Shown here piece by piece: positions 479-44,163 of a stretch of 64,000 nt of DNA (within the stretch, counting starts at the first letter, position 1; each line of letters starts with the position of its first letter). This stretch comes from a virus. The notes beneath the pieces are model-generated. The model ran no database searches and was not told where the DNA came from. It was given only the letters and a program-made list of their open reading frames with translations. The position numbers were made by a program, and so were the translations under genes. The DNA lies in the IMG/VR virus record IMGVR_UViG_3300024999_000089, positions 6,926 to 70,925 of that record. One strand, 5' to 3'.

Positions 479-1306
479 TTATACTGCTATTCCATTTTTA
501 AGTTGTTGCATTTTATCGGCAAGTATCCAAAGAGCCTTATTTAATTTTACATTATTGTCAATACTTTGAACGGGTCTGGTTGTTGTTCGTTTTCCGTTTA
601 CGTTCCTTCCTCTTTGTCCACCTCTGATCATATTTTCTTGAATCGTGTTAAAACTACTCCAAACATCGCTATTTTTATCTTCGTACCTTCTAGTATTTAA
701 TATTTGATTGACAGATATTGGAGACTCGTCATATTTTAAGGCTAAAGCTGCTTCACCAAATATTTCCTTTTCTTCCGGTAATAATATGGTAGACTTCATA
801 CCTTCAATGGAATTTTTCACTAAATCAAAGTCATTTACAACGGTATAGGCTGCATCAATCACGTTATCTACTATATTTCCTTTGTGTCTTACTCTGATAT
901 CCTCGATTACGTCACCTGTTACCATACCATTCTGACAAACGAAGCGAAATACTCCTGCCATCATTTGGTAACTGGAAGTTCCATCGTGTGAATTAATAAG
1001 AACAATCTCGTTAGCTTCACTATTGGTAATATCTGAAGCATGACGTAACCGCAACATATGTTTGGTAAACTCTGACTTTCCTTCAATCCTTGACTTAGAT
1101 TGTGCAACCATAAACGGCTGAAATCCTTCTTTTCTTAATCCGTCAAGAACTGTAATAGTAGGAATATAGGTGTAACGTGCCGATCTAGATTCATGAGGCT
1201 CAACTGCAAAAATTGAAGGTGCTATGTTAAAAAGTTGATTATTATCTAGTGGGGTATTTTGCCTAAAATTATTACTATTATTATCAAATCTTGTTGCTAA
1301 TGCCAT
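479..1306 (-). CDS. DUF932/DUF945 family protein of the type found in plasmid leading regions
   Basis: Family motifs HESRSARYTYIPT, KHMLRLR, INSHDGTSSYQMMAGVFRFVCQNG and QENMIRGG; AGGAGG RBS. Confidence 0.9.
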   Translation of the reverse strand: MALATRFDNNSNNFRQNTPLDNNQLFNIAPSIFAVEPHESRSARYTYIPTITVLDGLRKEGFQPFMVAQSKSRIEGKSEFTKHMLRLRHASDITNSEANEIVLINSHDGTSSYQMMAGVFRFVCQNGMVTGDVIEDIRVRHKGNIVDNVIDAAYTVVNDFDLVKNSIEGMKSTILLPEEKEIFGEAALALKYDESPISVNQILNTRRYEDKNSDVWSSFNTIQENMIRGGQRGRNVNGKRTTTRPVQSIDNNVKLNKALWILADKMQQLKNGIAV

Positions 1307-3002: not shown

Positions 3003-3147
3003 TTGGTTCAACTCCCTAAAAAAGATATAGTTACTATATATAATACTAAATTTAAGGCTGAATAGCAATAGTATTTTCATAGATTATTATATTTATTTTT
3101 CTTGGTGTTGGGTATTGAGCAAAAAAAAAACACCTGTCAAAAGGTGT

Positions 3148-8770: not shown

Positions 8771-8859
8771 ATTGTATTACCTCCTTTTATTTTAAACCCT
8801 TTGTAAAACCTTCAAAAGTAAAGCAAAATAGAGATAATAAAAGATAGTTGAAGGCTTTA

Positions 8860-9049
8860 AAAAGGATTTATGCAGTTCTGGCACCGTCCACCTGCTCCTT
8901 GCATGTTCCGCATGTTCTCCCTGTGTGGTAATCCACCCATAGCCCAGGTATTACTACCCTTCCACTGGCTACCCTCATGCAGCTTTTGCAGTATCGTCGC
9001 TCGGTCACTTATTCGCCGTACTCCCTGCCTATGTGTAGTTTTCAAAGAA
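8860..9049 (-). ncRNA. Candidate structured leader RNA starting with boxA
   Basis: Locally GC-rich ~190-nt stretch in a very AT-rich genome, beginning with TTCTTTGAAAAC, at the head of the early gene run; overlapping ORFs lack an RBS. Confidence 0.45.
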
Positions 9050-9508
9050 GACTTACACTATTATATATTGCAAGAATCATACCAAAATTATATTTATAAT
9101 TTGTATTATACCCTTAGAGGGTATAGAATATTCAGAGGGCTGAAAGTATTGATTTTAGTAGGTTTTTTATGTTGTTTGGTTGGATATATTGGAGGGTATA
9201 TTGATTAGTTTAAAGGTTGATGTGGTAGTTTGGAAATGTGTATCGTAATGGAACGGTTATATGTTCTATATTGGAACAGTGTGTGTTGAAATGGAACAAT
9301 TGAGGTATATTATAGGTATAGTAGTATGATCAGATTGATACAATAGTGTAGCAATATGCTACTATTGTGTAATATTTTGATGTGGTTGGAGTGTTGGTGG
9401 GTTAGGTGATTTTAGGGGATTTATATATGAAATTTTGGAATAGTTAATATGATTGATTGTTTGGTTACAGTTTGGGAGTTGGTTGGATTGTTTATGTATT
9501 GGTTGGAG

Positions 9509-9524
9509 TGTTCCACGTGGAACA
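9509..9524. promoter_or_regulatory. parS site (ParB/Spo0J binding)
   Basis: Perfect palindrome TGTTCCACGTGGAACA, one mismatch from TGTTNCACGTGAAACA. Confidence 0.85.
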
Positions 9525-9780
9525 ATATTATATTTACCTTGTGTAAGCTGATTGGATAGTTTAGTTTATTTTTATTGTTTTGGTTCGTGTTAGTTTATAA
9601 AATCAGGTTAATTGGTTAGTGTTAGATATAGATAGATAGATAGATAGATTAGTTTTGGATGTTAGATGTTAGAGGTGTACTAGTTGGATAGTACACCTTA
9701 TTGTATGTAGTATTGAATACTATGTGTAGTAGTATTAATGTATTGTTTAGATAGTAATAAATATAATTAGATGTAGAAAG

Positions 9781-9813
9781 TTATACACAAGTTATTAACA
9801 GGTCTGTGGATAA
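9781..9813. promoter_or_regulatory. DnaA box cluster
   Basis: TTATACACA 9781-9789, degenerate TTATTAACA 9792-9800, TGTGGATAA (reverse TTATCCACA) 9805-9813. Confidence 0.7.
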
Positions 9814-9943
9814 ATCCTTTAGCATAGTAAAGTGTTAAAGTGGTAAAGCGTTAAAGTTAACAAGTGTTAACTAACAGATTTTCTGTTATCTTTTCCGAAT
9901 GTGTAATATTACACAGTGTGTAACAATTTATTCCTGGTGATAA

Positions 9944-9959
9944 TGTTCCACGTGGAACA
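9944..9959. promoter_or_regulatory. Second parS site
   Basis: Identical TGTTCCACGTGGAACA. Confidence 0.85.
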
Positions 9960-10279
9960 AAAGAATTATAATTATAGTTTGTTCTACACGTTCCACATGT
10001 TTTATATTTTCAACACGTACGATAATTCCGGCAATTGTAATCAGGTCATAGCTTCACTTGTGGCAATGTGGCTACATAGCTATATAGCACTCAATTAAAT
10101 ACAATCAAAAATAACCTCATATATACACTTTATTCAATTTCTCAGGTCATATTATACCTATTTTGAATTTACTCTTCAAATAGAGGCAAAATTTCAATCA
10201 AAATTTAAGTGTCCTGATTCTAACCTATTCACATATTCACCACATATTCACATTGTTAATATTCATATCGAGTATATTA

Positions 10280-10307
10280 CGTTCCGATAATAAAGATTAT
10301 GTCAACT
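10280..10307 (+). other. dif-like XerC/XerD recombination site
   Basis: CGTTCCGATAA-TAAAGA-TTATGTCAACT has the 11-6-11 layout of B. subtilis dif (ACTTCCTAGAA-TATATA-TTATGTAAACT); XerD arm matches 10 of 11. Confidence 0.75.
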
Positions 10308-10501
10308 AGCCTAACCCCTGTAACCCGCATTATACAAGGGTTTCTGGATTTATATTATTATTTTGTTGGTTCGTTTGTCAAATGTCCTTCAGTGGTGGAC
10401 ATTTTTTAGTCCATGATCGCCTTCTCAGCCCTGGAGTTGTGATACTGTATTGTATTTTTCGTGTTGGATGAGAAGGCCGGGGATACTTTACAAATTGAGA
10501 G

Positions 10502-10516
10502 TGATAATCATTATCA
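10502..10516. promoter_or_regulatory. Fur box
   Basis: Perfect 7-1-7 TGATAAT-C-ATTATCA. Confidence 0.7.
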
Positions 10517-10899
10517 TATGCCACCACATCAGTTAGAATTCCACATCCATTCCACATACGATTGCGACTCTCGTATATTAATCGTCTAACATCATAAATA
10601 ACAACTATTTTCATAATATATAATTTTCATCCTAATCATATCTCAAATTGTTATCACTGTTAAATTTTATTAAATATATTATCTATTTTTACCATCCTAT
10701 TTCCATTTTACCATTCATTCAAACACTCTATAAAGCACACTAATATCAACACATTATAACACATTCTAATCCTATCACAACTAACCAATATTATCAACCA
10801 ATACATCAATTAAATAACAATCAAATAACAATCAAATCATAAATATCGAATATTATTTTACAACTAATTTTAAATTAAATTTTAACATTATTTTTTTAC

Positions 10900-11166
10900 T
10901 CAAACAACATCATATCTCTTATTATTAATAAATTTATTACTAAGTTTATTATTAAATTTATCACCAATTTTAAAATTTTTCATAATTTCTTCACCAAATA
11001 ACATCCAACCTTTAACCCATATCCCTTCTATCTTATATATCCTTTCAATTTCTTCCCTTCTAATAAATTCATTTAACAAATCAAATAACTCATCTTTATC
11101 ATCTAATAATTCATTCAATAATTCTTCATATTCTGTATCAATCACACAACTAAATTCTTTCAACAA
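10900..11166 (-). CDS. Hypothetical protein (start uncertain)
   Basis: ORF co-oriented with neighbours. Confidence 0.5.
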   Translation of the reverse strand: MLKEFSCVIDTEYEELLNELLDDKDELFDLLNEFIRREEIERIYKIEGIWVKGWMLFGEEIMKNFKIGDKFNNKLSNKFINNKRYDVV

Positions 11167-11301
11167 TATATTACAAAAATGTTCTCCTGTATAAACTGTA
11201 TATATTTATATATATATATTTCTCCTTTAATTTATATAATTTTACTATCAATATTATAATTTCTCTTAATTTCTCTTAATTTCTCATTAACAAAAATATA
11301 C

Positions 11302-11592
11302 TTACTCAACATACCTACTCCTATAATCCAACACACTAACAAACTTATCACCATATTCAATCAATTTTATATACTTCTTATAAACTCTAATCTCTTCCTT
11401 ACTAAACTCACTTAAATCTTTGATAATATCTCCATTCTTCCTAAACACAACAACTTTTTCTATATTAAATTTAGTATCTATATTATCAAATCCTATATCA
11501 ACATCCTTCCCAATAATCAAATTAACCACACTACCTTCAATAAATTCCATAACTAAATAATATCCACCCATATTTTGTACATTAATAATCAT
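11302..11592 (-). CDS. Hypothetical protein
   Basis: ORF with AAAGGAG RBS. Confidence 0.7.
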   Translation of the reverse strand: MIINVQNMGGYYLVMEFIEGSVVNLIIGKDVDIGFDNIDTKFNIEKVVVFRKNGDIIKDLSEFSKEEIRVYKKYIKLIEYGDKFVSVLDYRSRYVE

Positions 11593-11777
11593 TACTCTCT
11601 CCTTTAATATATATGTATTTTTATATTAACAATCTATTTCTATAATTAATCTACCCATAAAATTAAACTTTATTCTTTAAATTTATTTATATCATAAACC
11701 AACTTAACATTATAATTTAAACTTTAACAAAAAAATAATCTCCCATTAAAGGAGATTAAACTAATTAAATCATTCAT

Positions 11778-12089
11778 CTATTTACAATGTATTCTTATGA
11801 AGGAGGAGGTTGAATCTCTATTTCCATTATTCCCATTCCCATGATCCCTATACACATACCCAAAATACCACAACAAACTTCCACTAAACACACCTAAACC
11901 ATAACAAATAAAACTAATATATTTAAATAAATCACTTAATCCTAATATACCAATTCCACTTCTATTTCCTATATCTCCTATCATTAATCCACTTATAGAA
12001 AATAATGATATACATATTATTGATGATAAATACATTATATTTTTTACATTAACATCAATTGTTTTATTTTGAATCTCTACATTCTCCAT
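11778..12089 (-). CDS. Small membrane protein
   Basis: Two hydrophobic segments; AAAGGA RBS. Confidence 0.65.
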   Translation of the reverse strand: MENVEIQNKTIDVNVKNIMYLSSIICISLFSISGLMIGDIGNRSGIGILGLSDLFKYISFICYGLGVFSGSLLWYFGYVYRDHGNGNNGNRDSTSSFIRIHCK

Positions 12090-12651
12090 TTAAATTATCC
12101 TTTCTATTACCATTTTATTTATATTGCTTTGTTTCAAGCATTTTTATCTTGCATTTATCTTATCCATTAAATTTTAATCTATACATAGAATAAAAAATAT
12201 TTTTATTATTTCAATTAATTATCTAATTAATATTTTAATAACTTAATAATATAATTATTTGCCTAATTATATATCTTTCTATTTAATCATATAATTGTCT
12301 AATTAACTATTCACACAATAAATCAACTAGTCAGTTAACTAGTAATATGGGGCATATTAAACAATTCTATAACCTACCATATCACATATCACAAGTATCA
12401 TCACAAATTAAACCTAAAAAATATACACCACAGAAGTTATCATACTTCTAACTTCTTATTCTTGATTCACCTAGTAAGTAATTAATAGTATTGGACAAGA
12501 TTATTTATATCTTCTACAATACATATTCCTATATATATCCTAACTTATATCTTCTATCATATTGTCATACATATTGTACTATATCATAATTTACATATAT
12601 AACAATACTATAATACTATAATGTACAACCAATAAATTTACAAAAAAAATA

Positions 12652-13443
12652 TCACAATCCTAAATATAATTTAATCTCATCAACAGTTTTGACTATAAAC
12701 TTTATCCCCAATTTCTTCTCTACACCATTATCAATATAATCATACTTGATATTATCTACCTCTACACTCTTTAAAACTTTCAATTTCTTATTTTCACTAT
12801 TACACACAATCAATATATTAGGGAATCTCTTCACCCTATTTGCCCAATATTCATTTAAATATAATTTATTTTTAAATATCTCGTTATAATTAATAATCTT
12901 CATAAATTTATTATTACTTTCAAATTTATCGCTTTCAATAATATAATACTTATATTCATTTGTTACATAATTAATAAATCCTATAATTCCATCTGGTCTT
13001 TTACCACACTCCATAACATACTCTATCTCAATATCATTAAACTTATAATATTTATAATTAATATTCACATACCTCAACAAATAAATAAATCCCCAATTTC
13101 TATTTATATCATGTGAAACAAATCTATTATTCTTATACTTTTTATTTGTAAAGTAAATATTACACTCATTAATATCTAATCTAACTGAATCAATTCTAAC
13201 TTTCCCTTTCAATATCCTTAATCTTTCCCTACACTTTACTATTCCAAATTTTATATCAGAAAAAAACAACAGATAAATTTGCTCTGTTGTCAATATTCCA
13301 AATTCTTCTATTATATCAACTATGCACTTATCTCGGTAATAACCTTTTTGTCTCGTTGTCATTGATTTGAAATTGAATAAATGGGTCAGCATTGGATTCA
13401 TCACCTTTGTAGAAATATTTAGCAACTGTCTTTTTCCTATCAA
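12652..13443 (-). CDS. Replication-relaxation (Replic_Relax) family protein
   Basis: N-terminal wHTH-like LTTEQIYLLFF, then HD, RPDG and IESD (PD-(D/E)xK-type) motifs; overlaps the FtsK gene as is typical; true start probably near 13401. Confidence 0.75.
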   Translation of the reverse strand: MIGKRQLLNISTKVMNPMLTHLFNFKSMTTRQKGYYRDKCIVDIIEEFGILTTEQIYLLFFSDIKFGIVKCRERLRILKGKVRIDSVRLDINECNIYFTNKKYKNNRFVSHDINRNWGFIYLLRYVNINYKYYKFNDIEIEYVMECGKRPDGIIGFINYVTNEYKYYIIESDKFESNNKFMKIINYNEIFKNKLYLNEYWANRVKRFPNILIVCNSENKKLKVLKSVEVDNIKYDYIDNGVEKKLGIKFIVKTVDEIKLYLGL

Positions 13444-14716
13444 ATAGATTATTAAATAACTTACATCTATCCATTGCTATATCTGGATCTAAATATAATG
13501 CTTGCAATTCCATTTGTTTACTATTATACAATGATATAAATCTTCCTTGAACATCAGGTAAATATAATGCATCTCTATTACCTAATACTGTTAAACTATG
13601 ACCAAAATCATTACATTTAAAACTAATTCTGCCACTTAAATTATTCTTAATGATAGGTGATATTAAATCTCTATCTGGTCTCTGCATACATATAACTAAT
13701 CTTACCCCTGCTTTTCTACCTAATTGTGCTAAATCATATGTCTTCTTCTGCAAATAATTTAATAATATTTTCTCTTGTTTGGTATGAAATTTTCCAGGAG
13801 CAGTAAAAGCAAATTCATCAATAAATAATACAAGGTAAGGAAGTTTCGCATCAGGATATGATAAGTTATAGTCTCTTAATCTTCTTTTCTTATATTTAAC
13901 TAATACATCCAATCTCCTTTTAGTTTCATCCCATAGCATATCTAATACTAATCTTGCTTTCTCTATGTCTCCAGCAAATATAGTATATTCTTGTAGATGA
14001 ATAAAATCAGTCATAGCTAGATCAATTACAAATAATAATACATTTGGATTTTGAAGTAATGCATCTGCCCAACCAGTTGCTAAAACACTTTTCCCTCTTC
14101 CAACTGAACCTGATATTAAAACATTATAAACATCTAACATTTCCCAAATTTCTAAACCCATCTGGTTGATTCCTACAGGAACAGGAAGAATGTACTTATC
14201 CAAATATTCCATAGTAATAAATTTATAATTAACCTTTCTAGGAATAACACCTTTAAATACTTCTATCTTTAATAATCCATTATCTTCTTCTATAATAACT
14301 TGAGCAACTAATGAGTTAGCAAAATTTAATGTTTTATCAATATACATTTTAAATGTCATACTATATGGTAATCTCCATAAAGTAGTATAATGGTTATCAT
14401 TATCTTCATATCTAATAGTTTTAATATGGTATGCGTATCTACCTGAATTATTATATAAACCACATTCAGACATAATACTCTCTATCTCTGATTCTACAGT
14501 CCTACCTTTCCTACATCTAATTAGTTTCTTTACTGATGTTTTTAAATCTTCTTTCTTCTCAGGTTTTAATGGTTTATATCCAAGCTGTATATCCCATAGA
14601 TACTTCTTAAAACTTTCCTTTAAATCAGATTTATATTTCTTCCAATTTTCTTTAATATCTACCTTATCTACTTTCCCCTTAATTTTAATCTTATCCTTCT
14701 TATTATTATCTCCCAT
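13328..14716 (-). CDS. FtsK/SpoIIIE-family ATPase
   Basis: Walker A GSVGRGKS, Walker B LFIDEF, LGRKAGV, QRPD and GRF motifs; GAGGAG RBS favours the MGDNNKK start. Confidence 0.9.
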   Translation of the reverse strand: MGDNNKKDKIKIKGKVDKVDIKENWKKYKSDLKESFKKYLWDIQLGYKPLKPEKKEDLKTSVKKLIRCRKGRTVESEIESIMSECGLYNNSGRYAYHIKTIRYEDNDNHYTTLWRLPYSMTFKMYIDKTLNFANSLVAQVIIEEDNGLLKIEVFKGVIPRKVNYKFITMEYLDKYILPVPVGINQMGLEIWEMLDVYNVLISGSVGRGKSVLATGWADALLQNPNVLLFVIDLAMTDFIHLQEYTIFAGDIEKARLVLDMLWDETKRRLDVLVKYKKRRLRDYNLSYPDAKLPYLVLFIDEFAFTAPGKFHTKQEKILLNYLQKKTYDLAQLGRKAGVRLVICMQRPDRDLISPIIKNNLSGRISFKCNDFGHSLTVLGNRDALYLPDVQGRFISLYNSKQMELQALYLDPDIAMDRCKLFNNLFDRKKTVAKYFYKGDESNADPFIQFQINDNETKRLLPR

Positions 14717-14785
14717 AACAAATATCTCCTCGTATATAATTATCTCTTTAAGACAAACTAAGCAATAACTACACCCTACATTGAG

Positions 14786-15127
14786 GTGATTAACTTGGAT
14801 ATAGATAAACTTAAAGATATTACAAATAGGAATATAGATACTGGTAATTACTTGCAAAATTTAAGATTAAGTAAAAAATTAACATTATCTTCGGCATCAA
14901 AATCTATAAATATCAGTCCTACATATCTAAGTGACATTGAACATGGTAGAAAATTACCAAGTGATACCACAATTAAGAATATTGCTGATTTTTATGAAAT
15001 AGATGAAATAGAATTATTTAATAAATTTGGCAAGATTTCATTAACTGTAAAGAAATTATTACTTAATGATTTGAATTTGCAAAGAAAAATATATAATGAA
15101 GTTAAAATTAATAATTATAAACATTAA
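14786..15127 (+). CDS. XRE-family HTH regulator
   Basis: LRLSKKLTLSSASKSINISPTYLSDIEHGRKLPS. Confidence 0.9.
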   Translation: MINLDIDKLKDITNRNIDTGNYLQNLRLSKKLTLSSASKSINISPTYLSDIEHGRKLPSDTTIKNIADFYEIDEIELFNKFGKISLTVKKLLLNDLNLQRKIYNEVKINNYKH

Positions 15128-21037: not shown

Positions 21038-21754
21038 ATGTGGAAAGTAGTACCTATGTGTGAAAAACAATTAAGAGATATAAATAAAAATGATATATTA
21101 CATAATGGATATTTTAGAAAATGTAATACATATAAATCTGGTGGAGGGTATGATAAATTCCCTCAAATAGCAAAAGAAAGATTGAATATGAATGGTAATA
21201 ATCAATTTGTAGTACAATTATATGGGTGTACATTAGATTGCCCGTACTGCTATGTAACTAGAGATGGTATTTGGGGAGAATATAAAAAGTTTTCAACTGA
21301 TGAATTAATTGATTGTTTTATAGAATCTAAACAAGATGTATTTCATTTAATGGGTGGGAGTCCTGCATTATACATAGAAAATTGGCATGAGATTATTAAT
21401 AAATTACCAAAAGACAAAATATTTCATAGTGATTTATTATTAGTAGAAAAGGAATATAAATTAGAATGTTTGAATAGTATTAAATCTAATAACTCTTTAT
21501 ATGCAGTAAATATTAAAGGTGTTACTTTAGATGATTTTTATCAAAATACAAATAGAAAATTCAATAAAGAATTATTTTATAGTAATTTTGATAAAATTGT
21601 TGAATCAGGTATTAATTTCTATTTAACATTTACTAATCCTGATAAAAGTAAAATTATTGAGTTTGCAAAATCATTAATTGATAAGTATGGTAAAAAAATA
21701 ACAGAAGATGCATTTATAATTAATTTAATTGATTATGATGCATTGAATGATTAA
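21038..21754 (+). CDS. Radical SAM superfamily protein
   Basis: CxxxCxxC motif CTLDCPYC and GGSP. Confidence 0.8.
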   Translation: MWKVVPMCEKQLRDINKNDILHNGYFRKCNTYKSGGGYDKFPQIAKERLNMNGNNQFVVQLYGCTLDCPYCYVTRDGIWGEYKKFSTDELIDCFIESKQDVFHLMGGSPALYIENWHEIINKLPKDKIFHSDLLLVEKEYKLECLNSIKSNNSLYAVNIKGVTLDDFYQNTNRKFNKELFYSNFDKIVESGINFYLTFTNPDKSKIIEFAKSLIDKYGKKITEDAFIINLIDYDALND

Positions 21755-37082: not shown

Positions 37083-38183
37083 GTGACTATTATTGCTAGA
37101 CCTAAAAAAGCTACAACTAATATTGTACAAGTAAAAAAAGAAAAAATAATGTTTAAATGCTTATGTTGCGAAAAAGAAAAAGATCAAGAAAAAGAATATT
37201 ACAAATCAAATTCTTTTATTCTTAAAGGTAATAATAATCGTATGTTCATATGCCGTCAATGTGTTGTTGATTTATATACATATTTAGTAGGAAAGCATAA
37301 TGATTGTAAAATTGCATTATATTTTGCTTGTAGATTATTAGATGTATATTTTGAATCAAGTTTATATTATAGTGCAGAACAACAAGCAAATAATAGTAAT
37401 AGTAGTATATTTGCTATCTACCTGCAGAAATGTAACAGCCTCCCACAATATTCTTCAAAAACATTTTCAGAATCTTCCCCATTAGAATCTACTGAAAATA
37501 TAAATATATTTGAGACAGAAATTAAATTGGATACAAATGAGGAAGATAAAAGAAATAAAGAAGATGTAATTCGTATGGTTGGTTACGATCCATTTGAAAA
37601 TGATAATCAAATGGATAAGAAACATCTTTATAATACTTTAGTTGATTTTTTAGATGAATCAACACTAGAAGATTCATTTAAATTGCCTATAGTAATTGAA
37701 ATAGTTAAAAGTTTTAATCAAATAGATAAACTTAATCAAGCATTATCATTATTAACTGCTGATGTAAATAATATACAATCACAAACAGGTGGAGTAAAAT
37801 CGCTAATTGAAGCAAAGGAAAAAGTATATCGTTCAATACTTGCTATGGCAAAGGATAACGGTATTTCAGTTAATCATGCCAATAATAAATCTAAAGGTGC
37901 AGGTACTCTATCTGGAATTATTAAACAATTACAAGAAAAAGGATTTATGGAAGTTGAAGTAAATCTTTTTGATATAGAAACTTGTAAAGGGATGCAACAA
38001 GTAGCTGATATTAGTAATAATAGCATTTTAAAACAACTACAATTTGATGAAAATGATTATACTTTTATGATTAATGAACAACGTGATTTAATTCAAAATT
38101 TACAAAAGAAAAATACATATTTAGAAGAAGAAAATAGATTATTAAAAATAAAATTTAGAGAAGGTGACATAGTTAATGAATAA
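37083..38183 (+). CDS. Zinc-finger protein preceding terL; candidate small terminase subunit
   Basis: CLCC...CRQC; overlaps the terL start; position as in SPbeta-like phages. Confidence 0.6.
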   Translation: MTIIARPKKATTNIVQVKKEKIMFKCLCCEKEKDQEKEYYKSNSFILKGNNNRMFICRQCVVDLYTYLVGKHNDCKIALYFACRLLDVYFESSLYYSAEQQANNSNSSIFAIYLQKCNSLPQYSSKTFSESSPLESTENINIFETEIKLDTNEEDKRNKEDVIRMVGYDPFENDNQMDKKHLYNTLVDFLDESTLEDSFKLPIVIEIVKSFNQIDKLNQALSLLTADVNNIQSQTGGVKSLIEAKEKVYRSILAMAKDNGISVNHANNKSKGAGTLSGIIKQLQEKGFMEVEVNLFDIETCKGMQQVADISNNSILKQLQFDENDYTFMINEQRDLIQNLQKKNTYLEEENRLLKIKFREGDIVNE

Positions 38184-41007
38184 AAAAACTATGTCACAAA
38201 GAAAAATTGATGGATATTTAAAACTTGCAGAGATAATAAATTATGGAAGAAAATTTCCAGTACGTTTTGTAGAAAGGTTTTTTGGTTTAGACCTGTTAGA
38301 TTTTCAGAAATATGTGTTTTTAAAAAGTTGGTATACTCCTAATTGTGTTTGGTGTATGGGGAGATCGTCTGGTAAAGCATTAAGTTTAGATACTAAAATA
38401 CCAACTCTTACAGGGTTTAAAACAATGGGAGAATTGCAAATTGGAGATTATATATTAACTGAAAATGGTGAACCTACCAAAGTTACTTATGTTTCAGATA
38501 TTTTTATTGGACATAAGTGTTATGAAGTTGAATTTGATGATGGAGCAAAAATTATTGCGGATGCCGAACATTTATGGGCATTATCAACAAAAAAAAATGA
38601 AAAGATAAGAATTTTTACTACTGAAAATATAGCTAAAGATTATGTTCGTCATAGAAATGATAAGGTTAAAAACGAATATAAATATCGTATTCAAAAAAAT
38701 AATCCGATAAAATATCAAGAGAAAGAATTACCTATCCATCCTTATTTATTAGGTATATGGTTAGGTGATGGTAATTCTGCAAATACCAATATAACTTGCG
38801 GTTATGAAGATTTAAATAATATGATTACAAACATTAATGAAATTGGTTATTCTACTAAAATATACTATCATAAAAACAGAACACCTTCAATTGGTGTAGG
38901 AATAACACCTAGAGGACAAGAAAATAAATTTAAGACTGAATTAAGAAATTTAAATTTAATAAATAATAAGCATATTCCAGAAATATATCTATATTCAAAT
39001 ATTGAACAAAGATATGAATTGTTAAAAGGACTCATGGATTCAGATGGTACATGTAGCATAAAAGGAGAATGTTCTTTTTCTCAGAAAGATTATAATATTA
39101 TTATAAAAGTATCTCAACTTTTATCTTCTTTAGGAATTACTAATATAATAAAAAATAAAAAATCAAAATGTAAAGGAAAAGAATATTATTCTTATAATAT
39201 TTTCTTTAGAGTGGATAAAAATCATAGTTGTTTTAAACTATTAAGAAAACATGAAAGATTGCAGAATGAATTACATAAAAGACAAAAAAGAAATTCAATA
39301 ATATCAGTTAAAGAAATTCTTTCTGTGCCAACAAAATGTATAACTGTGGATAATCATTCACAGTTATATTTATGTAGTGAAAAATTTGTAGTTACACATA
39401 ATACAACTCTTGGTTCTCCTTTTTTAATGGCTAAAAGTTTACTTATACCAAATTTTCAGGCTTATATTTTAGCTGGTTCTGGAAGTCAAAGTCAAGAAAT
39501 GTTTTCTAAAATAGAAAAAATAGCAAAAAGAGAGATAGCTTCTTTTACTGGTTTAACAGATATTTTTTTAAACGAAACAGTAAAAAGTGCATCGAATAAA
39601 GATGGATTTACACATAATCCTAGTTCTTTTGAATATAACCTCTACAACGGTAGCGCAGTTAACTCACTAAATGGTGCCATTAATAATCTTAGGAGTCGAA
39701 GATCAAATTGCAATTTTTACGATGAGAGTGGATTTGCACCAGATGAATTATTTACTGCATCATTACCATTTATCACTCAAAATAGTAGTTTTAGACTTGG
39801 TGGAGATGTTGATGTATCAACTTTCCCAAAACAATTTCCAAACCAAGCAATATTTGCTTCTTCAGCATCAAGTACAGATACTTTTTTCTTTAGAATATAT
39901 AGAGAATACGCACAAAAAATGATGCTTGGTGATTCTAATTATTTTGTAGCAGATATAAATTCTGACGTAGTAATAAATGCTACATATAATGGTAAACTAT
40001 ATCCTGTTCCATTGCTTAGTCAGCAAACTATTGATAATGCTATGCGTGAAAATTATAGTAAGGGCATGAGGGAGTATAAAAATATTTTTACAACAGAAGG
40101 ATCGGATAAACAGATTATTAAAAGGTCTGTTCTTATTAGAAATTCTGAATTAAGAATACCAATTTTTGCAAATAATAGCAATAGAAAATTTGCTTTGGCA
40201 TATGATCCTAGTAGATCTTACGATAATGCTATTACAATGGTTGGTGAAATTATATTTGATGAAAATATTGGTTATAAAATGGAAATATGTAATGGTGTAA
40301 GTTTTGTAGATATTGCTAAGAAAAAAAAGACTCCAATGAGAACACCAGAACAAATAGAATATTTAAAAAAAATGATATTGGATTATAATGGTAAACAATC
40401 AGCAGAATATGAAAATATCGAGACTGTCTGTATTGATGCTGGTGCTGGTGGTGGTGGTGTTAATATTGCTGATTATCTTATGGAAGATTGGACAGATAAC
40501 GCAGGAATTAAACATAAAGGGTTAATTGATAAAATTGAATCAACAGATTATGTTTCAAAATTTCCAAACGCTGTTGATAAAATTAAATTACTTTCACCAC
40601 AAAAGTATAAAAAAATGTTATTTGACGCACTTATTGAAATGTTAAATCTTGATTTAATAAGTTTCACGGAAGATTATGATATGAAAGGATTTTTAACCTT
40701 TGCAGATAGTGAAAATTCATATAAATTATCTTTTGATGAAGAATTAGCTTTAAAAAATATTGATTTAGCCAAAGAAGAATTAGTTAATATGTATAGGTAT
40801 GATGGAACAAATGGTAATTATAGATATGATCTAAGAGATGATAGAGTAGGAAGATTATACGACGATAGAGCATATTGTTTAGCTATGCTTGCATGGTATT
40901 TATCAGAATTAAGAAGAAAACATATAACAGGGAAAAAGAAAAATACTAACATCTCTCCCTCATCATATTTTGCAATAGCAAATAAATCATCAAGAGCAAG
41001 AAGATAG
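38176..41007 (+). CDS. terL: Terminase large subunit with intein
   Basis: Walker A GRSSGK|TT split by the intein, Walker B FYDESGF, nuclease motifs AYDPS, IDAGAGG and YDDRAY. Confidence 0.92.
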   Translation: MNKKTMSQRKIDGYLKLAEIINYGRKFPVRFVERFFGLDLLDFQKYVFLKSWYTPNCVWCMGRSSGKALSLDTKIPTLTGFKTMGELQIGDYILTENGEPTKVTYVSDIFIGHKCYEVEFDDGAKIIADAEHLWALSTKKNEKIRIFTTENIAKDYVRHRNDKVKNEYKYRIQKNNPIKYQEKELPIHPYLLGIWLGDGNSANTNITCGYEDLNNMITNINEIGYSTKIYYHKNRTPSIGVGITPRGQENKFKTELRNLNLINNKHIPEIYLYSNIEQRYELLKGLMDSDGTCSIKGECSFSQKDYNIIIKVSQLLSSLGITNIIKNKKSKCKGKEYYSYNIFFRVDKNHSCFKLLRKHERLQNELHKRQKRNSIISVKEILSVPTKCITVDNHSQLYLCSEKFVVTHNTTLGSPFLMAKSLLIPNFQAYILAGSGSQSQEMFSKIEKIAKREIASFTGLTDIFLNETVKSASNKDGFTHNPSSFEYNLYNGSAVNSLNGAINNLRSRRSNCNFYDESGFAPDELFTASLPFITQNSSFRLGGDVDVSTFPKQFPNQAIFASSASSTDTFFFRIYREYAQKMMLGDSNYFVADINSDVVINATYNGKLYPVPLLSQQTIDNAMRENYSKGMREYKNIFTTEGSDKQIIKRSVLIRNSELRIPIFANNSNRKFALAYDPSRSYDNAITMVGEIIFDENIGYKMEICNGVSFVDIAKKKKTPMRTPEQIEYLKKMILDYNGKQSAEYENIETVCIDAGAGGGGVNIADYLMEDWTDNAGIKHKGLIDKIESTDYVSKFPNAVDKIKLLSPQKYKKMLFDALIEMLNLDLISFTEDYDMKGFLTFADSENSYKLSFDEELALKNIDLAKEELVNMYRYDGTNGNYRYDLRDDRVGRLYDDRAYCLAMLAWYLSELRRKHITGKKKNTNISPSSYFAIANKSSRARR
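38377..39402 (+). mobile_element. Class 3 (Ala1, WCT) intein with LAGLIDADG endonuclease, 342 aa
   Basis: Starts ALSLDT, block B ADAEHLW, LLGIWLGDG and LKGLMDSDG, block F TKCITV, ends VTHN|T. Confidence 0.9.
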
Positions 41008-41054: not shown

Positions 41055-42650
41055 ATGCCTGATCAAAACAATCTAAACAATAACCAAAACAACCAACAAA
41101 ACCTCTCCCCTACCCTATTCTCTTTAAAAAAATCATGGGAATCAGCTAAAAACTTTTCCTTATCAAGAATAGGTGTTTTATTTAAAAATAAACAAAAGAA
41201 ATTAAATAATGTAACTATTGATAAAATAAAATTATGGCTTGCTAATCCACAAAAATACCAAAATGAGATACTTGATTTATCAGATAATTTATATGCACCT
41301 GAAGGAATCTATAAAGTTTTAGTCAATTTAACTACAAATATGGCAACATTAGATAATTATCTTCAACCTGATTTTTACACAATGCAAAAATTAAAAGAAG
41401 AAATTAATAATCAAACTTCAAAAGAAATGTCTGAAGAAGAATCTCAAGAAGTAATAAATAAACTTTTAAAAAATTTTAATAATGAATTTAATACTGTTAG
41501 AAAATATATTGATAATATAGATATAAAGAAAACAGGACGTAGAATTATAGAAAGTTTGGTTAGATATGGTGCTTATTGTGGTTTTGAAAAGAATGACGGT
41601 AATTTTCCTTATCTATGGGATTTGCCTATAAAATATGTTAGATTATATTCGATAAAAAATGGACAATTTTCTGTTGAGTTTAACTTCAAATATTTTGAAG
41701 ATTTAAATTCAGATAATTCATTATCTGAATTTGCATGGAGTATTTATCCTGATGAATTTAAAATATTATATGATAGATATAAAACTAATTCAGATAGATT
41801 AAGATATCCAGAATGGCAACCTTTACCTAGTGATAAAGTATGTTGCATTAAATTAGGTGGAGATAATGATACTTTCTTTTTACCATTGTATAGTCAATTG
41901 TTTACTGAGTTATTTTTATTAAATGATTTAGTTGATGAAGAGATTGAAAGTTCTAGGGATCAAAAATTAAAAATGGTTTCCATTAATTTTCCAACAGATC
42001 AGGAAAGTGGCATACCTCTCGTAGAACCAGATGTTGTGTCATCTTGGGTTTCTACTGTCGCAGCAAATTTGCCCGACTCGGTCTGTGTGGTGGGGAGTCC
42101 TTATAAATTAGAAGAAATTTCTTTTAAAAGTGTACAAAATGAAAAAGAAAATTTGGCAGAATTTGCAAAATCAATGGCATATATGCAAGCTGGAGCAAAT
42201 CCTCTGCTGTTAGGAGGTTCTTCTACTAATTCCTCCGTAGGTATAACACAGAATTTAATATATATACAATCTGTTGTATTCTCAATGCTTGATAAGATTC
42301 AAAGTTGGTTTAATTATAGAATTTCCAATGTTAACCTTAGAAAGAAATATACTTTTAGATTAAATATATGGAAAACAACTTGGTATAATCAACAAGATAT
42401 TTTTGACAGAGAATATAAATTAACTTCTATCGGAGGATCATTAAACGTCATTAGTAGTATTAATGGACATAGTGTTGATGATTACAATGCTAGTCTTATA
42501 TATGAAAATTTAATTAAATCAAAAGAATTTTGGCGACCTCCTCTTAATATGAATCAAGGTTCAAATTTAGATGATATTGGAGGAAGACCAGAAGTAGATA
42601 ATCCTACTGACTCTGGAATTGTAACTCGTGATAAAGAAACCAATATGTAA
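41055..42650 (+). CDS. Portal protein
   Basis: 531 aa directly after terL; C-terminal GGRP motif common in portals. Confidence 0.8.
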   Translation: MPDQNNLNNNQNNQQNLSPTLFSLKKSWESAKNFSLSRIGVLFKNKQKKLNNVTIDKIKLWLANPQKYQNEILDLSDNLYAPEGIYKVLVNLTTNMATLDNYLQPDFYTMQKLKEEINNQTSKEMSEEESQEVINKLLKNFNNEFNTVRKYIDNIDIKKTGRRIIESLVRYGAYCGFEKNDGNFPYLWDLPIKYVRLYSIKNGQFSVEFNFKYFEDLNSDNSLSEFAWSIYPDEFKILYDRYKTNSDRLRYPEWQPLPSDKVCCIKLGGDNDTFFLPLYSQLFTELFLLNDLVDEEIESSRDQKLKMVSINFPTDQESGIPLVEPDVVSSWVSTVAANLPDSVCVVGSPYKLEEISFKSVQNEKENLAEFAKSMAYMQAGANPLLLGGSSTNSSVGITQNLIYIQSVVFSMLDKIQSWFNYRISNVNLRKKYTFRLNIWKTTWYNQQDIFDREYKLTSIGGSLNVISSINGHSVDDYNASLIYENLIKSKEFWRPPLNMNQGSNLDDIGGRPEVDNPTDSGIVTRDKETNM

Positions 42651-42660
42651 TAAATTTTTT

Positions 42661-42750
42661 GTGGCTAGGCAATGCAGACCGAAAAGGAGTTTCCCTACTC
42701 CCTGCCACTCATATAATTTTAGGGATTTTTATATGAAGGGAGATATAATA
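42661..42750 (+). ncRNA. Structured leader, copy A
   Basis: P1 GTGGC/GCCAC; P3 GGAGT/ACTCC with loop TTCCCT; AGGGA at 42721 and 42737. Confidence 0.65.
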
Positions 42751-44163
42751 ATGAGTAATAAACTTGATTTTAATGCAGTAAAAGATCGTATTTCAAAAAT
42801 AGGTTATGAATTAATTAGTAATAAATATGTAAAAATGAGAGCAGATTTGATAGTAAAAGATAAATATAATTATTATTATAAGGTAAGCTTAGAAGATTTA
42901 AGTGCTGGTGTAAAACCTAAATTTGTACATCCTGCAAATCCATATTCTATTTACAATATAAAATTATATTTAAAAAATAATAAAGATAATTTTATATTGT
43001 TATCTAATAAATATGAAAATGAAGATTCTAATTTAATTTTGTGTGACAATGAAGGATATTATTATTCTTTGACATGGAGAACACTTAAAAGGAGAAATAA
43101 ACATGTAATTGTTGGTGAAAATAATATATATTCAACAAAAAATATTGAATTATTTTTAAATAATAATTATCCGAATTTAAATTTACTAAATAAGTTTATA
43201 AATTATAAAGAAAAATTAATCTTTATAGATAATAACGGATATATTTATACAAGAACATGGAATGATCTAAAAAGATTAAATAATTTTCATATAGCAGATA
43301 AAAGTAATAAATATTCCATTCAAAACATTAAACTTTGGTGCAAACTTAATAATAAACCTTTTGAATTAATTAGTAATAAATATAATAATAATTTAGAATA
43401 TCTTAAATGGAAATGTTTAAAAGATGATTGTGAAGAGTATTTTAATTCATCTTGGAGTAATATTATGAGTGGTAATGGTTGCTCTTATTGTGCAGGTAAA
43501 AAAGTTGGTCTTTCTAATTGTTTAGCAACTAAATATCCTGAAATTGCATCTGAATGGCATCCTATACTCAATGGGAATTTAACTCCTTACGATGTAACAT
43601 ATGGTAGTGAAAAATATATTTATTGGAAATGTAAAGATTGTGGTCATGAATGGAAAGTAACACCAAATAATAGAACTGCTTCCGGCACTAGTTGTCCTGA
43701 ATGTAATAAATCTAAAGGCGAAAAAGAATGTAAAAGAGTTCTTATGTCTAAAGATTTAATGGAAATATTATATGAAGAATATGAAATATTATCAGATATA
43801 GAAAAGAACAATAATATATATTTTATTCCACAAATGAAATTTGATAGATTGCTAGGTTTGGGAGGTTGTTTACTATCCTATGATTTTTATATACCAAAAT
43901 TAAATTTAATTATAGAGTATGATGGCGAATATCACTATATGCCAATTAGAAAATATAAAAATAAACCAATGAAAGATGCAGAAGAAAGATTTATAAAGCA
44001 ATAAATACACGACCAACTAAAAAATGAATATTGTAAGAAACACAATATAAAACTTATCCGTATACCATATTGGGATTTTGATAATATAGAATCTATTCTT
44101 TCTAAAGAATTAAATATTAAATCAAATAAATTACAAAAAAGTATCATAATTTATAGGATGTGA
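42751..44163 (+). pseudogene. Zinc-ribbon PD-(D/E)xK (DUF559/Vsr-like) endonuclease with a premature TAA
   Basis: CSYC, EWHP...WKCKDCGHEW, CPEC, SKGE, YDFY...IEYDGEYH; after TAA 44002-44004 the frame continues IHDQLKNEYCKKHNIKLIRIPYW. Confidence 0.8.

What the first reader, a model, noticed from the sequence alone, without database searches (positions are those of the whole stretch)
9509..10307. Host chromosome-maintenance sites packed into 800 bp: two parS, DnaA boxes and dif
Seen: identical parS palindromes at 9509 and 9944, DnaA boxes at 9781-9813 and a dif-like site at 10280-10307, in gene-free DNA where the plus strand changes from G/T-rich (about 9.2-9.7 kb) to C/A-rich (after about 10.5 kb). 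Known: on chromosomes parS and oriC lie opposite dif; phi29 uses host Spo0J/parS to be trapped in forespores; some phages integrate or resolve dimers through XerCD/dif. No parB, dnaA or xer gene is in this window. Inference: the phage recruits host ParB/SMC, DnaA and Xer to behave as a mini-chromosome or to enter spores; dif could instead be an attP.
Basis: partly seen in the sequence, partly recalled or inferred. Interest (0 to 1): 0.82.

Follow-up and report, generated by a model that had tools for sequence, protein, structure and literature searches.

The report
Phage-borne parS and dif pair
A family of large uncultivated groundwater phages keeps a bacterial chromosome "centromere" site (parS) about 300 bases from a chromosome "terminus" site (dif) in a gene-free hub, which suggests that the phage borrows the cell's own chromosome-handling proteins to maintain its DNA.

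Summary
The two parS palindromes and the dif-type site are real and far beyond chance. The DnaA boxes are not. The window is part of a 70.9-kb fragment (about 49% complete) of a 26%-GC tailed phage.

In 18 distinct relatives' versions of the hub, a perfect parS lies 278-471 bp upstream of dif in 15. The dif core plus a 36-bp flank is nearly invariant. The DNA between them has diverged to about 59% identity. Phage-specific repeats and palindromes in the hub differ between relatives, whereas parS and dif do not, which points to conserved, probably host, binding proteins (ParB, XerC/D).

Downstream, 10 of 11 lineages keep a replication-relaxation-like gene and an FtsK/TcpA-like DNA translocase gene. 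Three relatives encode a Xer-like recombinase and one a ParB-like protein. This record has neither.

Best reading (about 45%): a maintenance module of an extrachromosomal prophage, with a borrowed centromere and multimer resolution. Rivals are attP for integration at host dif, spore or daughter-cell entrapment, and a phage operator. The "DnaA/mini-chromosome" part is not supported. The host is unidentified and nothing is shown biochemically. I rate it a new variant of known hijacks (phi29 parS; Xer-exploiting elements).

The parts
9209..10377 (.). Gene-free hub between two leftward gene blocks. It holds all the sites below. Part of it is a ~440-bp internal duplication (repeat families D1, D3, D4).
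   Evidence: ORF list; repeats with 435-444 bp spacing; the same architecture in L005, L006 and L162
9509..9524 (.). parS-1, a perfect 16-bp palindrome TGTTCCACGTGGAACA. This copy is specific to this phage and arose with the ~440-bp duplication.
   Evidence: no relative has a site at -773 from dif
9944..9959 (.). parS-2, a perfect palindrome 338 bp upstream of dif. This is the family-conserved copy.
   Evidence: perfect at -278 to -471 in 15 of 18 variants; pairwise identity 0.963 over its columns
9980..9996 (+). Two parS half-site-like octamers (TGTTCTAC, CGTTCCAC) about 25 bp after parS-2. A TGTTCCAC-like half-site is conserved here in relatives and survives in L225, which has lost the full parS.
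9805..9813 (-). Perfect DnaA-box 9-mer (TTATCCACA), with a 1-mismatch box at 9781-9789. It is present, but neither enriched nor conserved.
9827..9858 (+). 8-bp tandem repeats (GTAAAGTG/TTAAAGTG type). Relatives carry different repeat motifs at this position, so these look like phage-specific iterons.
   Evidence: D2; alignment
9882..9915 (+). Conserved TGTTAT(A) extended -10-like block followed by CGA and a phage-specific palindrome (here TGTGTAATATTACACA, 9900-9915). This is a promoter/operator-like or terminator-like element immediately upstream of parS-2.
   Evidence: function inferred only
10280..10307 (+). dif-type site: XerC-arm-like CGTTCCGATAA, spacer TAAAGA, XerD-arm-like TTATGTCAACT.
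   Evidence: pairwise identity 0.932 among 18 variants
10308..10343 (+). Conserved 36-bp flank on the XerD-arm side (AG..AACCCTRYAA.C.GCATTATAYAAGGGTTT). It is an imperfect palindrome also present in small phages, in either orientation. Function unknown; possibly an accessory or promoter element.
   Evidence: identity 0.806
9201..9800 (+). Left arm: non-coding, G/T-rich and C-poor on the plus strand (GC skew +0.65 to +0.70).
10601..13200 (-). Right arm: small leftward genes whose sense strand is almost free of C (0-4 G per 200 nt on the plus strand at 10601-11600). The G-rich strands of both arms point towards dif.
   Evidence: the same polarity in relatives
12652..13443 (-). Replication-relaxation-like protein gene (no Pfam hit). 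It is conserved next to the translocase gene.
   Evidence: Atlas nearest clusters carry PF13814 at score 0.96 (a lead only)
13328..14857 (-). FtsK/SpoIIIE-family DNA translocase-like ATPase, with no membrane segment evident in the N-terminus. Its closest solved relatives are chains named 'DNA translocase coupling protein'.
   Evidence: synteny with dif in 10 of 11 lineages

Best explanation
The hub is a maintenance region of a large tailed phage that spends part of its life as an extrachromosomal, plasmid-like replicon.

The invariant parS palindromes are bound by a conserved ParB, most likely the host's chromosomal Spo0J/ParB. That gives the phage DNA a borrowed centromere for positioning and segregation.

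The dif-type site, about 300 bp away, is recombined by XerC/D-type recombinases: the host's, helped or replaced in relatives by a phage Xer-like enzyme. This converts replicon multimers to monomers.

The neighbouring phage FtsK/TcpA-like translocase may supply the DNA-pumping and activating function that FtsK gives at a chromosome terminus.

What is shown: the sites exist, are non-random, are conserved together and are syntenic with these genes. What is inferred: who binds them, the plasmid state, and the role of the translocase.
For: 1. Non-randomness: parS 2 observed against 0.00 expected. The dif arms are identical to true chromosomal dif sites. A chromosomal contig (mutS-mutL-miaA...lexA-dif-RNR) carries a dif that is 28/28 identical to the site of co-occurring small phages.

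2. Conserved pairing: 15 of 18 distinct variants have a perfect parS 278-471 bp upstream of dif. One more has 1 mismatch.

3. Islands of conservation: pairwise identity is 0.963 for parS, 0.932 for dif and 0.806 for the flank. It is 0.594 between the sites and 0.524 to the left.

4. Iteron-like repeats and the palindrome before parS differ between variants, while parS and dif do not. That is what one expects if the latter bind factors common to all these phages.

5. All four parS sites of the record lie within 15 kb, like a centromere cluster.

6. Relatives encode a full-length Xer-like recombinase (E about 1e-43 to the XerA/C/D models) within 4-10 kb of dif, in 3 of 5 records tested. One encodes a ParB_N+HTH_ParB protein.

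7. The replication-relaxation-like and FtsK/TcpA-like gene pair follows dif in 10 of 11 lineages.

8. The portal's distant relatives (20-24% identity) include 15 circular 122-203 kb 'plasmids' of Firmicutes, which are phage-plasmids. Passages of PMC8026635 state that plasmid prophages usually carry XerCD-like recombinases thought to resolve dimers.

9. Contigs of 3 runs bridge dif in the phage form.
Against: - No binding, plasmid state or topology is shown. IMG/VR classes the record as linear, without end repeats.
- The host is unidentified, so its own parS and dif cannot be compared.
- No ParA-type ATPase (AAA_31) was found in 4 related records.
- 0 of 5 known phage-plasmids with a related portal carry parS with up to 1 mismatch, and only 1 of 5 has a weak dif-like match.
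- The close relative G001 (142.8 kb) has no parS and only a degenerate dif. L225/L217 have lost parS by deletion. Higher-GC relatives keep dif without parS.
- A MAG contig carries the translocase and replication-relaxation-like gene pair without either site.
- On chromosomes parS and dif lie opposite each other, not adjacent.
- No gamma-domain-like match was detected in the translocase.
Confidence: 0.45

Rival explanations
1. The dif-type site is an attP. The phage integrates into the host chromosome's dif by XerC/D (IMEX-like) or by its own Xer-like integrase, and parS has a separate role.
For: - The site equals real chromosomal dif sites, including the 6-bp spacer, in several taxa.
- Unrelated small phages of the same samples carry the same site with no recombinase gene: G005, 81% complete, has 0 matches. 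Elements that rely on host Xer look like this.
- Xer-like genes lie near dif in relatives.
- Xer-mediated integration at dif is established for filamentous phages (listings and abstracts).
Against: - No phage-host junction was seen. All 18 variants have phage DNA on both sides of dif, and contigs from 3 runs bridge it, though contigs cannot show rare forms.
- Integration would place parS sites at the host terminus. This is an inference, but it should disturb chromosome organisation.
- The conserved FtsK-like synteny fits resolution better than FtsK-independent integration.
Confidence: 0.2
2. The parS sites serve as in phi29. Host Spo0J/ParB drags the infecting genome into the forespore, or reliably into daughter cells, during a suspended lytic cycle. 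dif is unrelated or auxiliary.
For: phi29 carries five parS sites, and Spo0J is implicated in spore entrapment (PMC2731898 passages). The portal's relatives infect spore-forming Firmicutes. The record has four parS sites.
Against: - No Spo0A boxes lie in the hub: 2 in the window against 1.99 expected, both elsewhere.
- The host and its ability to sporulate are unknown.
- This reading does not explain the tight, conserved pairing with dif.
Confidence: 0.12
3. The palindrome is not a host ParB site. It is the operator or centromere of a phage-encoded protein, such as a ParB/KorB-like protein or repressor encoded in the missing half. Its identity to parS reflects descent of that protein from ParB.
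For: - The sites lie in intergenic DNA near promoters. Record sites 2127 and 3055 and L162:197 sit between a terminator and a promoter.
- One relative encodes a ParB-like protein.
- Half of the genome is unseen.
Against: - The one relative with a ParB-like gene has no parS at all.
- The 16-mer is invariant among variants whose other palindromes and repeats have diverged.
- It matches the pan-bacterial parS consensus at 16 of 16 positions. The consensus is recalled, not taken from a call.
Confidence: 0.13
4. The hub is a transfer or replication origin for the replication-relaxation-like and TcpA/FtsK-like pair, a conjugation-like DNA translocation module. The dif-like site is its processing site.
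For: The closest solved relatives of the ATPase are chains named 'DNA translocase coupling protein' (E 4e-42). The Atlas gives a replication-relaxation lead. There are iteron-like repeats. The synteny is conserved.
Against: The same gene pair occurs without parS or dif in L252. The site is a canonical dif, not a known oriT. No other transfer genes were seen in the proteins scanned.
Confidence: 0.05

Closest known systems
phi29-family parS sites (Bacillus subtilis phages exploiting host Spo0J)
   Same: A tailed phage without a parB gene carries several copies of the host-type parS sequence. The host ParB is thought to handle the phage genome (PMC2731898 passages).
   Different: phi29 is a 19-kb linear protein-primed phage with no dif, and its sites work together with Spo0A boxes. 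Here the phage is about 140 kb, parS is paired with dif at about 300 bp, and no Spo0A boxes are present. Binding is untested.
IMEX elements (CTXphi, TLCphi, XacF1 and other filamentous or tailless phages that use XerC/D at dif)
   Same: A mobile element carries a dif-like site that host XerC/D can recognise. Some need no recombinase of their own (abstracts).
   Different: In the listings I saw, those are small filamentous or tailless phages that integrate at dif. Here the phages are tailed, the site has a conserved 36-bp flank, no integrated form was seen, and a translocase gene and (in relatives) a Xer-like gene are linked to it.
Plasmid-prophage (phage-plasmid) maintenance modules: a Xer/Cre-type resolvase with its site, plus a par system
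   Same: Phage-plasmids carry XerCD-like recombinases believed to resolve dimers, together with partition functions (PMC8026635 passages). The portal's distant relatives are such elements.
   Different: Known ones encode their own ParA/ParM/TubZ system with private centromeres. Here no partition ATPase was found and the centromere is the chromosomal parS. 0 of 5 known relatives tested carry parS.
Chromosomal parS/ParB-SMC loading and dif/XerD-FtsK terminus system
   Same: The sequence motifs are the same. G-rich strands converge on dif as at a chromosome terminus.
   Different: On chromosomes the two sites lie about 180 degrees apart. Here they are 278-471 bp apart. No shared oriented G-rich octamer (KOPS/SRS-like) was found in the arms.
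FtsK-type conjugative coupling proteins (TcpA of pCW3; the assignment of the PDB entries to TcpA is recalled)
   Same: The best solved-structure sequence matches to the phage ATPase profile are 6o1z/6o1x/6o1w, 'DNA translocase coupling protein' (E 4e-42).
   Different: The phage protein shows no N-terminal membrane segment by eye, and it sits in a phage next to dif. No other conjugation genes were found.

Membership tests
parS (ParB/Spo0J-type chromosomal centromere site) | 16-bp palindrome matching TGTTNCACGTGNAACA | tested here: met
   16 of 16 at 9509 and 9944, against 0.00 expected. The consensus itself is recalled.
parS (ParB/Spo0J-type chromosomal centromere site) | Bound by a ParB protein, with nucleation and CTP-dependent spreading | not testable with these tools
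   The host is unknown. The 70.9-kb record has no ParB_N gene.
parS (ParB/Spo0J-type chromosomal centromere site) | Several copies clustered in one region of the replicon | tested here: met
   4 sites within about 15 kb of a 71-kb record, and none elsewhere.
dif (XerC/XerD chromosome dimer resolution site) | 28-bp core: two 11-bp arms with inner ATAA/TTAT, separated by a 6-bp spacer | tested here: met
   10280-10307. The arm pattern recurs once per contig in at least 120 bacterial genome contigs. 14 contigs also share the spacer type.
dif (XerC/XerD chromosome dimer resolution site) | Identity or near-identity to the host's own dif | tested here: inconclusive
   The host is unknown. A 27/28-identical site occurs in four short contigs of unknown context (L218, L221, L243, L250). 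The small-phage version is 28/28 identical to a chromosomal dif (L235).
dif (XerC/XerD chromosome dimer resolution site) | Recombined by XerC/XerD, activated by FtsK | not testable with these tools
   There is only linkage to a Xer-like gene in relatives and to an FtsK-family gene.
oriC-like, DnaA-dependent origin | Cluster of DnaA boxes beyond chance, next to an AT-rich unwinding element | tested here: not met
   One perfect and one 1-mismatch box. The window count is 27 against 29.45 expected. A perfect box is kept in 3 of 18 variants.
IMEX (integrative element exploiting Xer) | An integrated copy at host dif, flanked by dif-derived sites | tested here: not met
   All 18 variants have phage DNA on both sides of dif. 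Contigs of 3 runs bridge dif, and no joint or loose end at dif appears among the rows shown. Absence is not proven.
Phage-plasmid | Phage structural genes together with plasmid replication or partition genes on a circular episome | tested here: inconclusive
   Structural genes are present. The record has no ParA, ParB or Rep hit. Topology is unknown. Distant portal relatives are circular plasmids.
FtsK/SpoIIIE family | P-loop translocase motor domain | tested here: met
   PF01580 at 28.3 bits, above the 24-bit cut-off. Profile against PDB: FtsK 2ius E 5e-25 and coupling-protein chains E 4e-42.
FtsK/SpoIIIE family | C-terminal gamma (winged-helix) domain that reads KOPS and activates XerD | tested here: not met
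   No Ftsk_gamma hit appeared in the Pfam or NCBIfam scans. Structure was not modelled.

The most novel reading that the evidence does not exclude
The phage carries a self-contained miniature 'chromosome-handling' cassette. parS loads host ParB and, through it, SMC condensin. The XerD-bound dif 300 bp away unloads that SMC at once, since XerD is a known site-specific SMC unloader. The phage thus gains ParB-based positioning while escaping, or titrating, loop extrusion by host SMC-type machines. In parallel, its own FtsK/TcpA-like pump is steered towards dif by the two converging C-depleted arms and activates Xer away from the septum.
Probability: 0.1. Interest if true: 0.88.

Novelty: new variant of a known kind. 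Interest (0 to 1): 0.72.

Why it matters
Each of the two hijacks is known separately. phi29 uses host Spo0J through parS, and filamentous phages and other IMEX elements use host XerC/D through dif.

A conserved, closely spaced parS-dif pair in large tailed phages, linked to a phage translocase, would be different. It would show a virus borrowing both the origin-side and the terminus-side machinery of its host's chromosome from a few hundred bases of DNA, without carrying the genes.

It gives a compact, clonable fragment with which to ask three questions:
- whether a chromosomal parS alone can act as a plasmid or phage centromere in nature;
- how Xer is activated off the septum;
- what happens when an SMC loading site and an unloading site are adjacent.

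It also offers a sequence signature (parS, about 300 bp, then dif with its flank) for finding such phages and, through the dif spacer, for matching them to hosts.

My three literature searches on this listed no paper describing such a pair in a tailed phage. The library is incomplete, and supplements were not consulted.

Tried and rejected
1. DNA search of the hub against 50,697 phage records: no match.

2. Rfam over the window (gathering thresholds) and over the hub (E up to 1): only a chance mir-320 hit at E 0.36. No tRNA.

3. Exact 28-mer arms in species genomes: only 2 Actinomycetota contigs, so this gave no host.

4. Host identification failed.
- Spacer-specific dif matches were Virgibacillus and other higher-GC taxa.
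- The replication-relaxation-like profile found no relative in GTDB genomes.
- The FtsK-like profile found only 4 distant loci.

5. A KOPS/SRS-like oriented octamer shared by both arms: none convincing. GGTTGGA occurs 4 times on the left, once on the right and 0 times in the rest.

6. Known phage-plasmids with a related portal: 0 of 5 have parS, and 1 of 5 has a weak dif-like match.

7. ParB search in metagenome contigs of the family: the tool does not hold those records (error). I did not pursue this.

8. AlphaFold model of the replication-relaxation-like protein from 9 sequences: pLDDT 44.7, unusable. No fold search was made.

9. The GC-rich conserved element at 8862-9052 as a structured RNA: folding z-scores 0.41 and 0.46, so no support.

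10. Spo0A boxes: at chance level.

11. Laying Logan contigs from 4 groundwater runs.
- Only short unitigs were available.
- No joint or loose end at dif appeared among the rows shown; 166 loose-end rows were not shown.
- The higher summed depth in the parS and dif bins reflects other contigs that share the motifs and is no evidence.

12. Earlier findings of this scan: nothing on this genome or sequence.
Full report
WHAT THE WINDOW IS

The window is bases 6926-70925 of a single 70,925-bp virus record. IMG/VR classes the record as linear, and CheckV estimates it at 49% complete. It has 26% G+C.

It encodes a large terminase, a portal and other phage proteins. The portal is only 20-24% identical to anything in the named collections. 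Its relatives there are SPbeta-like, phiCD211-like and Sundance-like phages of 120-147 kb, and 15 circular 122-203 kb Firmicute 'plasmids' that carry phage genes.

The hub sequence is held by 15 public runs from 6 studies of groundwater and soil metagenomes. The host is not identified.

CHECK OF THE OBSERVATION

parS. The 16-bp palindrome TGTTCCACGTGGAACA stands at 9509-9524 and 9944-9959. Allowing one mismatch to TGTTNCACGTGNAACA, the window has 2 matches against 0.00 expected, and no shuffle out of 100 reached 2. The part of the record upstream of the window has two more sites, one perfect at record 2127 and one with 1 mismatch at 3055. Both sit in short intergenic spaces between a terminator-like hairpin and a promoter-like sequence of leftward genes. 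All four sites lie within about 15 kb.

dif. The dif-type site is CGTTCCGATAA-TAAAGA-TTATGTCAACT at 10280-10307, and it is unique in the window. It therefore has the form of real chromosomal dif sites.

DnaA boxes. The window holds 27 such boxes against 29.45 +/- 5.37 expected. Relatives rarely keep a perfect box near the hub: 3 of 18 variants, plus L005. I treat them as chance.

Surroundings. The stretch is free of plausible genes. The strand composition flips as described. The plus strand has GC skew +0.65 to +0.70 at 9201-9800, and at 10601-11600 it has only 0-4 G per 200 nt.

Missing genes. No ParB_N, Phage_integrase or Bac_DnaA match exists in the record. Half of the genome is missing, though.

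RELATIVES

A search with the FtsK-like protein found three viral contigs:
- L004 is nearly identical but ends before the hub.
- L005 lies in a 142.8-kb contig (G001). Many of its proteins are 80-95% identical, though the translocase is only 49% identical.
- L006 lies in a 39-kb contig (G002).

Pattern scans for the dif type found 60 viral contigs and, with the spacer fixed to TAAAKM, 43 metagenome contigs.

From the window, these 43 and five earlier loci (49 sequences) I obtained 38 distinct -40..+90 segments around dif. I then picked by eye the low-GC contigs whose dif is followed by the flank AG..AACCCTRYAA.C.GCATTATAYAAGGGTTT. That gave 18 distinct variants: the window, L209, L210, L211, L212, L216, L220, L225, L226, L227, L229, L231, L234, L236, L239, L241, L245 and L248.

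I left out the following:
- duplicates: L242, L244, L162, L228, L217, L238, L251;
- L246, which has no upstream DNA;
- three 42%-GC relatives: L222, L223, L249;
- the small-phage type: L219/L163, L233/L177, L232/L133, L240, L237;
- contigs of other or unknown context: L213, L214, L215/L155, L218, L221, L243, L250, L224, L230, L235, L247.

CONSERVATION OF THE parS-dif PAIR

In 15 of the 18 variants a perfect parS lies 278-471 bp upstream of dif. The other three behave as follows:
- L239, which is the contig of L006, has one mismatch.
- L212, the L162 type, has a one-base insertion variant at that place and a perfect copy 2145 bp upstream.
- L225 has lost the site by a ~38-bp deletion but keeps the half-site that follows it.

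In the MAFFT alignment the mean pairwise identities, ignoring pairs with gaps, are:

| Columns | Identity |
|---|---|
| parS | 0.963 |
| dif | 0.932 |
| 36-bp flank | 0.806 |
| between parS and dif | 0.594 |
| left of parS | 0.524 |

The two sites are therefore islands of constraint in diverged DNA that is full of insertions and deletions.

Other blocks are also conserved:
- a TGTTAT(A) extended -10-like block followed by CGA;
- a TGTTCCAC half-site about 25 bp after parS;
- GGTCATATTATACCT.

In contrast, two kinds of element differ between variants:
- The repeats left of that promoter-like block are GTTAAAG-type here, TAGGAAT-type or GGTAC-type in others.
- The palindrome between the block and parS is TGTGTAATATTACACA here, TTTAGTACCWGGTACTAAA or GTACG..CGTAC in others.

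My reading is that the variable elements bind phage-specific proteins, while parS and dif bind proteins common to all these phages. Host proteins are the most economical candidates. This is inference.

The second parS of this window (9509) belongs to a ~440-bp internal duplication and is not shared.

LINKED GENES

Downstream of dif come small leftward genes with an extraordinary bias. One 96-residue product contains no Ala, Pro, His or Gln and a single Thr. After them comes a 246-263-residue protein with no Pfam hit. Its nearest Atlas clusters are replication-relaxation (PF13814) proteins of phages and Bacillota, with a score of 0.96 (a lead only). Its AlphaFold model was unusable.

Next is an FtsK/SpoIIIE-family ATPase (PF01580 above its cut-off). 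A profile of seven family members matches PDB chains named 'DNA translocase coupling protein' (6o1z, 6o1x, 6o1w) at E 4e-42, and FtsK (2ius) at E 5e-25. That these entries are TcpA of plasmid pCW3 is my recollection.

This gene pair follows dif in 10 of the 11 variant lineages that have enough downstream DNA: the window, L005, L006/L239, L209, L210, L211, L216/L246, L226, L229 and L241. The L212/L244/L162 type lacks it.

A 281-292-residue tyrosine recombinase lies 4-10 kb from dif in G001, G002 and G004. It matches the XerA, XerC and XerD models end to end at E about 1e-43, below their equivalog cut-offs. That is 3 of the 5 records tested, and it also appears in L212 and L244. This record has no such gene.

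G001 encodes a ParB_N + HTH_ParB protein, which has no homologue here. G001 is also the relative with no parS at all and only a degenerate dif. No AAA_31 ParA was found in four records.

THE dif SITE BEYOND THIS FAMILY

The same dif with a related flank occurs in small podovirus-like phages of the same samples. There it lies between a small-terminase-like gene and the large terminase gene, and no recombinase gene is present. G005, at 81% complete, is an example.

One metagenome contig (L235) is a true bacterial chromosome piece, with mutS-mutL-miaA...lexA, then dif, then a ribonucleotide reductase gene, at 34% GC. Its dif is 28/28 identical to that small-phage site.

Four short contigs of unknown context carry a site that is 27/28 identical to the window's.

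NEGATIVE RESULTS

- 0 of 5 known phage-plasmids with a related portal have parS with up to 1 mismatch, and 1 of 5 has a weak dif-like match.
- A MAG contig (L252) carries the translocase and replication-relaxation-like pair at 37-38% identity, with neither site within 8 kb.
- The three 42%-GC relatives keep dif and its flank but not parS.
- No oriented G-rich octamer is shared by the two arms.
- No Spo0A boxes lie in the hub.
- Logan contigs of three runs bridge dif in the phage arrangement (X5 9430-10512, X12 10148-10327, X14 10049-10372). No joint or loose end at dif appears among the rows shown. Contigs cannot exclude rare forms.

INTERPRETATION

The firm conclusion is that parS and dif, with dif's flank, are functional and selected together as a closely spaced pair, linked to a DNA translocase gene.

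The most coherent mechanism is maintenance of an extrachromosomal prophage. It would have a borrowed centromere (ParB-parS), multimer resolution at dif by Xer-type recombinases, and possibly activation by the phage's own FtsK-family pump. Three observations fit this:
- the G-rich strands converge on dif, as at a chromosome terminus;
- distant relatives have a phage-plasmid lifestyle;
- plasmid prophages carry XerCD-like resolvases (PMC8026635 passages).

I give this 0.45.

Integration at host dif (0.2), phi29-like entrapment (0.12; PMC2731898 passages), a phage-encoded binder (0.13) and a transfer/replication origin for the TcpA-like module (0.05) remain open. Some of these are not mutually exclusive.

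The boldest reading rests on the fact that XerD unloads SMC at the terminus (Karaboja et al. 2021, seen only as cited in passages of PMC12322038). Adjacent parS and dif would then form an SMC load-and-release device. I give that 0.1.

NOVELTY

Host parS use by phi29 and host Xer use by filamentous and other small phages are known. Three full-text searches listed no description of a conserved parS-dif pair in tailed phages. The library is incomplete, and I read only listings, abstracts and the passages cited. Supplements were not consulted.

I class the finding as a new variant of a known kind.

Noticed in passing
window 10601-13200 (minus-strand genes); also L005 12000-14000, L177, L163, L162: Extreme strand asymmetry. 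The sense strand of the leftward genes next to dif is almost free of C: 0-4 G per 200 nt on the plus strand at 10601-11600. One 96-aa product has no Ala, Pro, His or Gln and a single Thr. Such DNA cannot contain any G/C-bearing palindromic restriction site. The cause is unknown.
   Followed up: partly
window 8780-9490 vs L005 17480-18171: About 600 bp of mostly non-coding DNA, including a GC-rich ~190-bp piece at 8862-9052, is about 95% identical to the relative L005, although the neighbouring translocase is only 49% identical. The middle part is replaced in L210, L242 and L248. It looks like mosaic exchange or a small inserted element. RNA folding gave no support for a structured RNA (z 0.41 and 0.46), and there was no Rfam hit.
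   Followed up: partly
L219/L163, L233/L177 vs L237 (small phages), just after dif: The ~31-bp imperfect palindrome next to dif (AAACCCTTATAGAATCATAGGTACAAGGTTT) occurs in both orientations relative to dif in different small-phage contigs. This could reflect inversion between its arms.
   Followed up: no
L177 (G005) 9767-12688; L163: In podovirus-like phages of about 31-40 kb, the dif-type site sits in a 1.1-kb non-coding gap between a small-terminase-like gene (HTH_Tnp_1_2) and the large terminase. The 81%-complete record has no recombinase gene. These are candidates for tailed phages that rely wholly on host Xer.
   Followed up: partly
L235 9689-9850: On a bacterial chromosome contig, the dif site is followed by tandem ~47-bp repeats, each containing a XerD-arm-like CATGTAAACT/CATATAAACT. 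They may be remnants of Xer-mediated insertions, or XerD-only sites.
   Followed up: no
record bases 1566-2038 (L001), upstream of the window: A DUF4258 protein gene (E 1.8e-6) with a small overlapping upstream ORF lies directly downstream of the perfect parS at record 2127. It may be a toxin-antitoxin-like pair; that assignment is recalled, not tested. Window 479-1306 encodes a DUF932 protein (E 8e-50).
   Followed up: no
window 38176-41007 and 42628-44004: The large terminase frame is unusually long at 943 aa. An HNH/homing-endonuclease-like gene (phrog_559) follows the portal gene, which suggests mobile endonuclease or intein content in the packaging module.
   Followed up: no
window 21038-21754: A radical-SAM protein gene (PF04055, E 1.2e-9) lies among the early or replication genes.
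   Followed up: no
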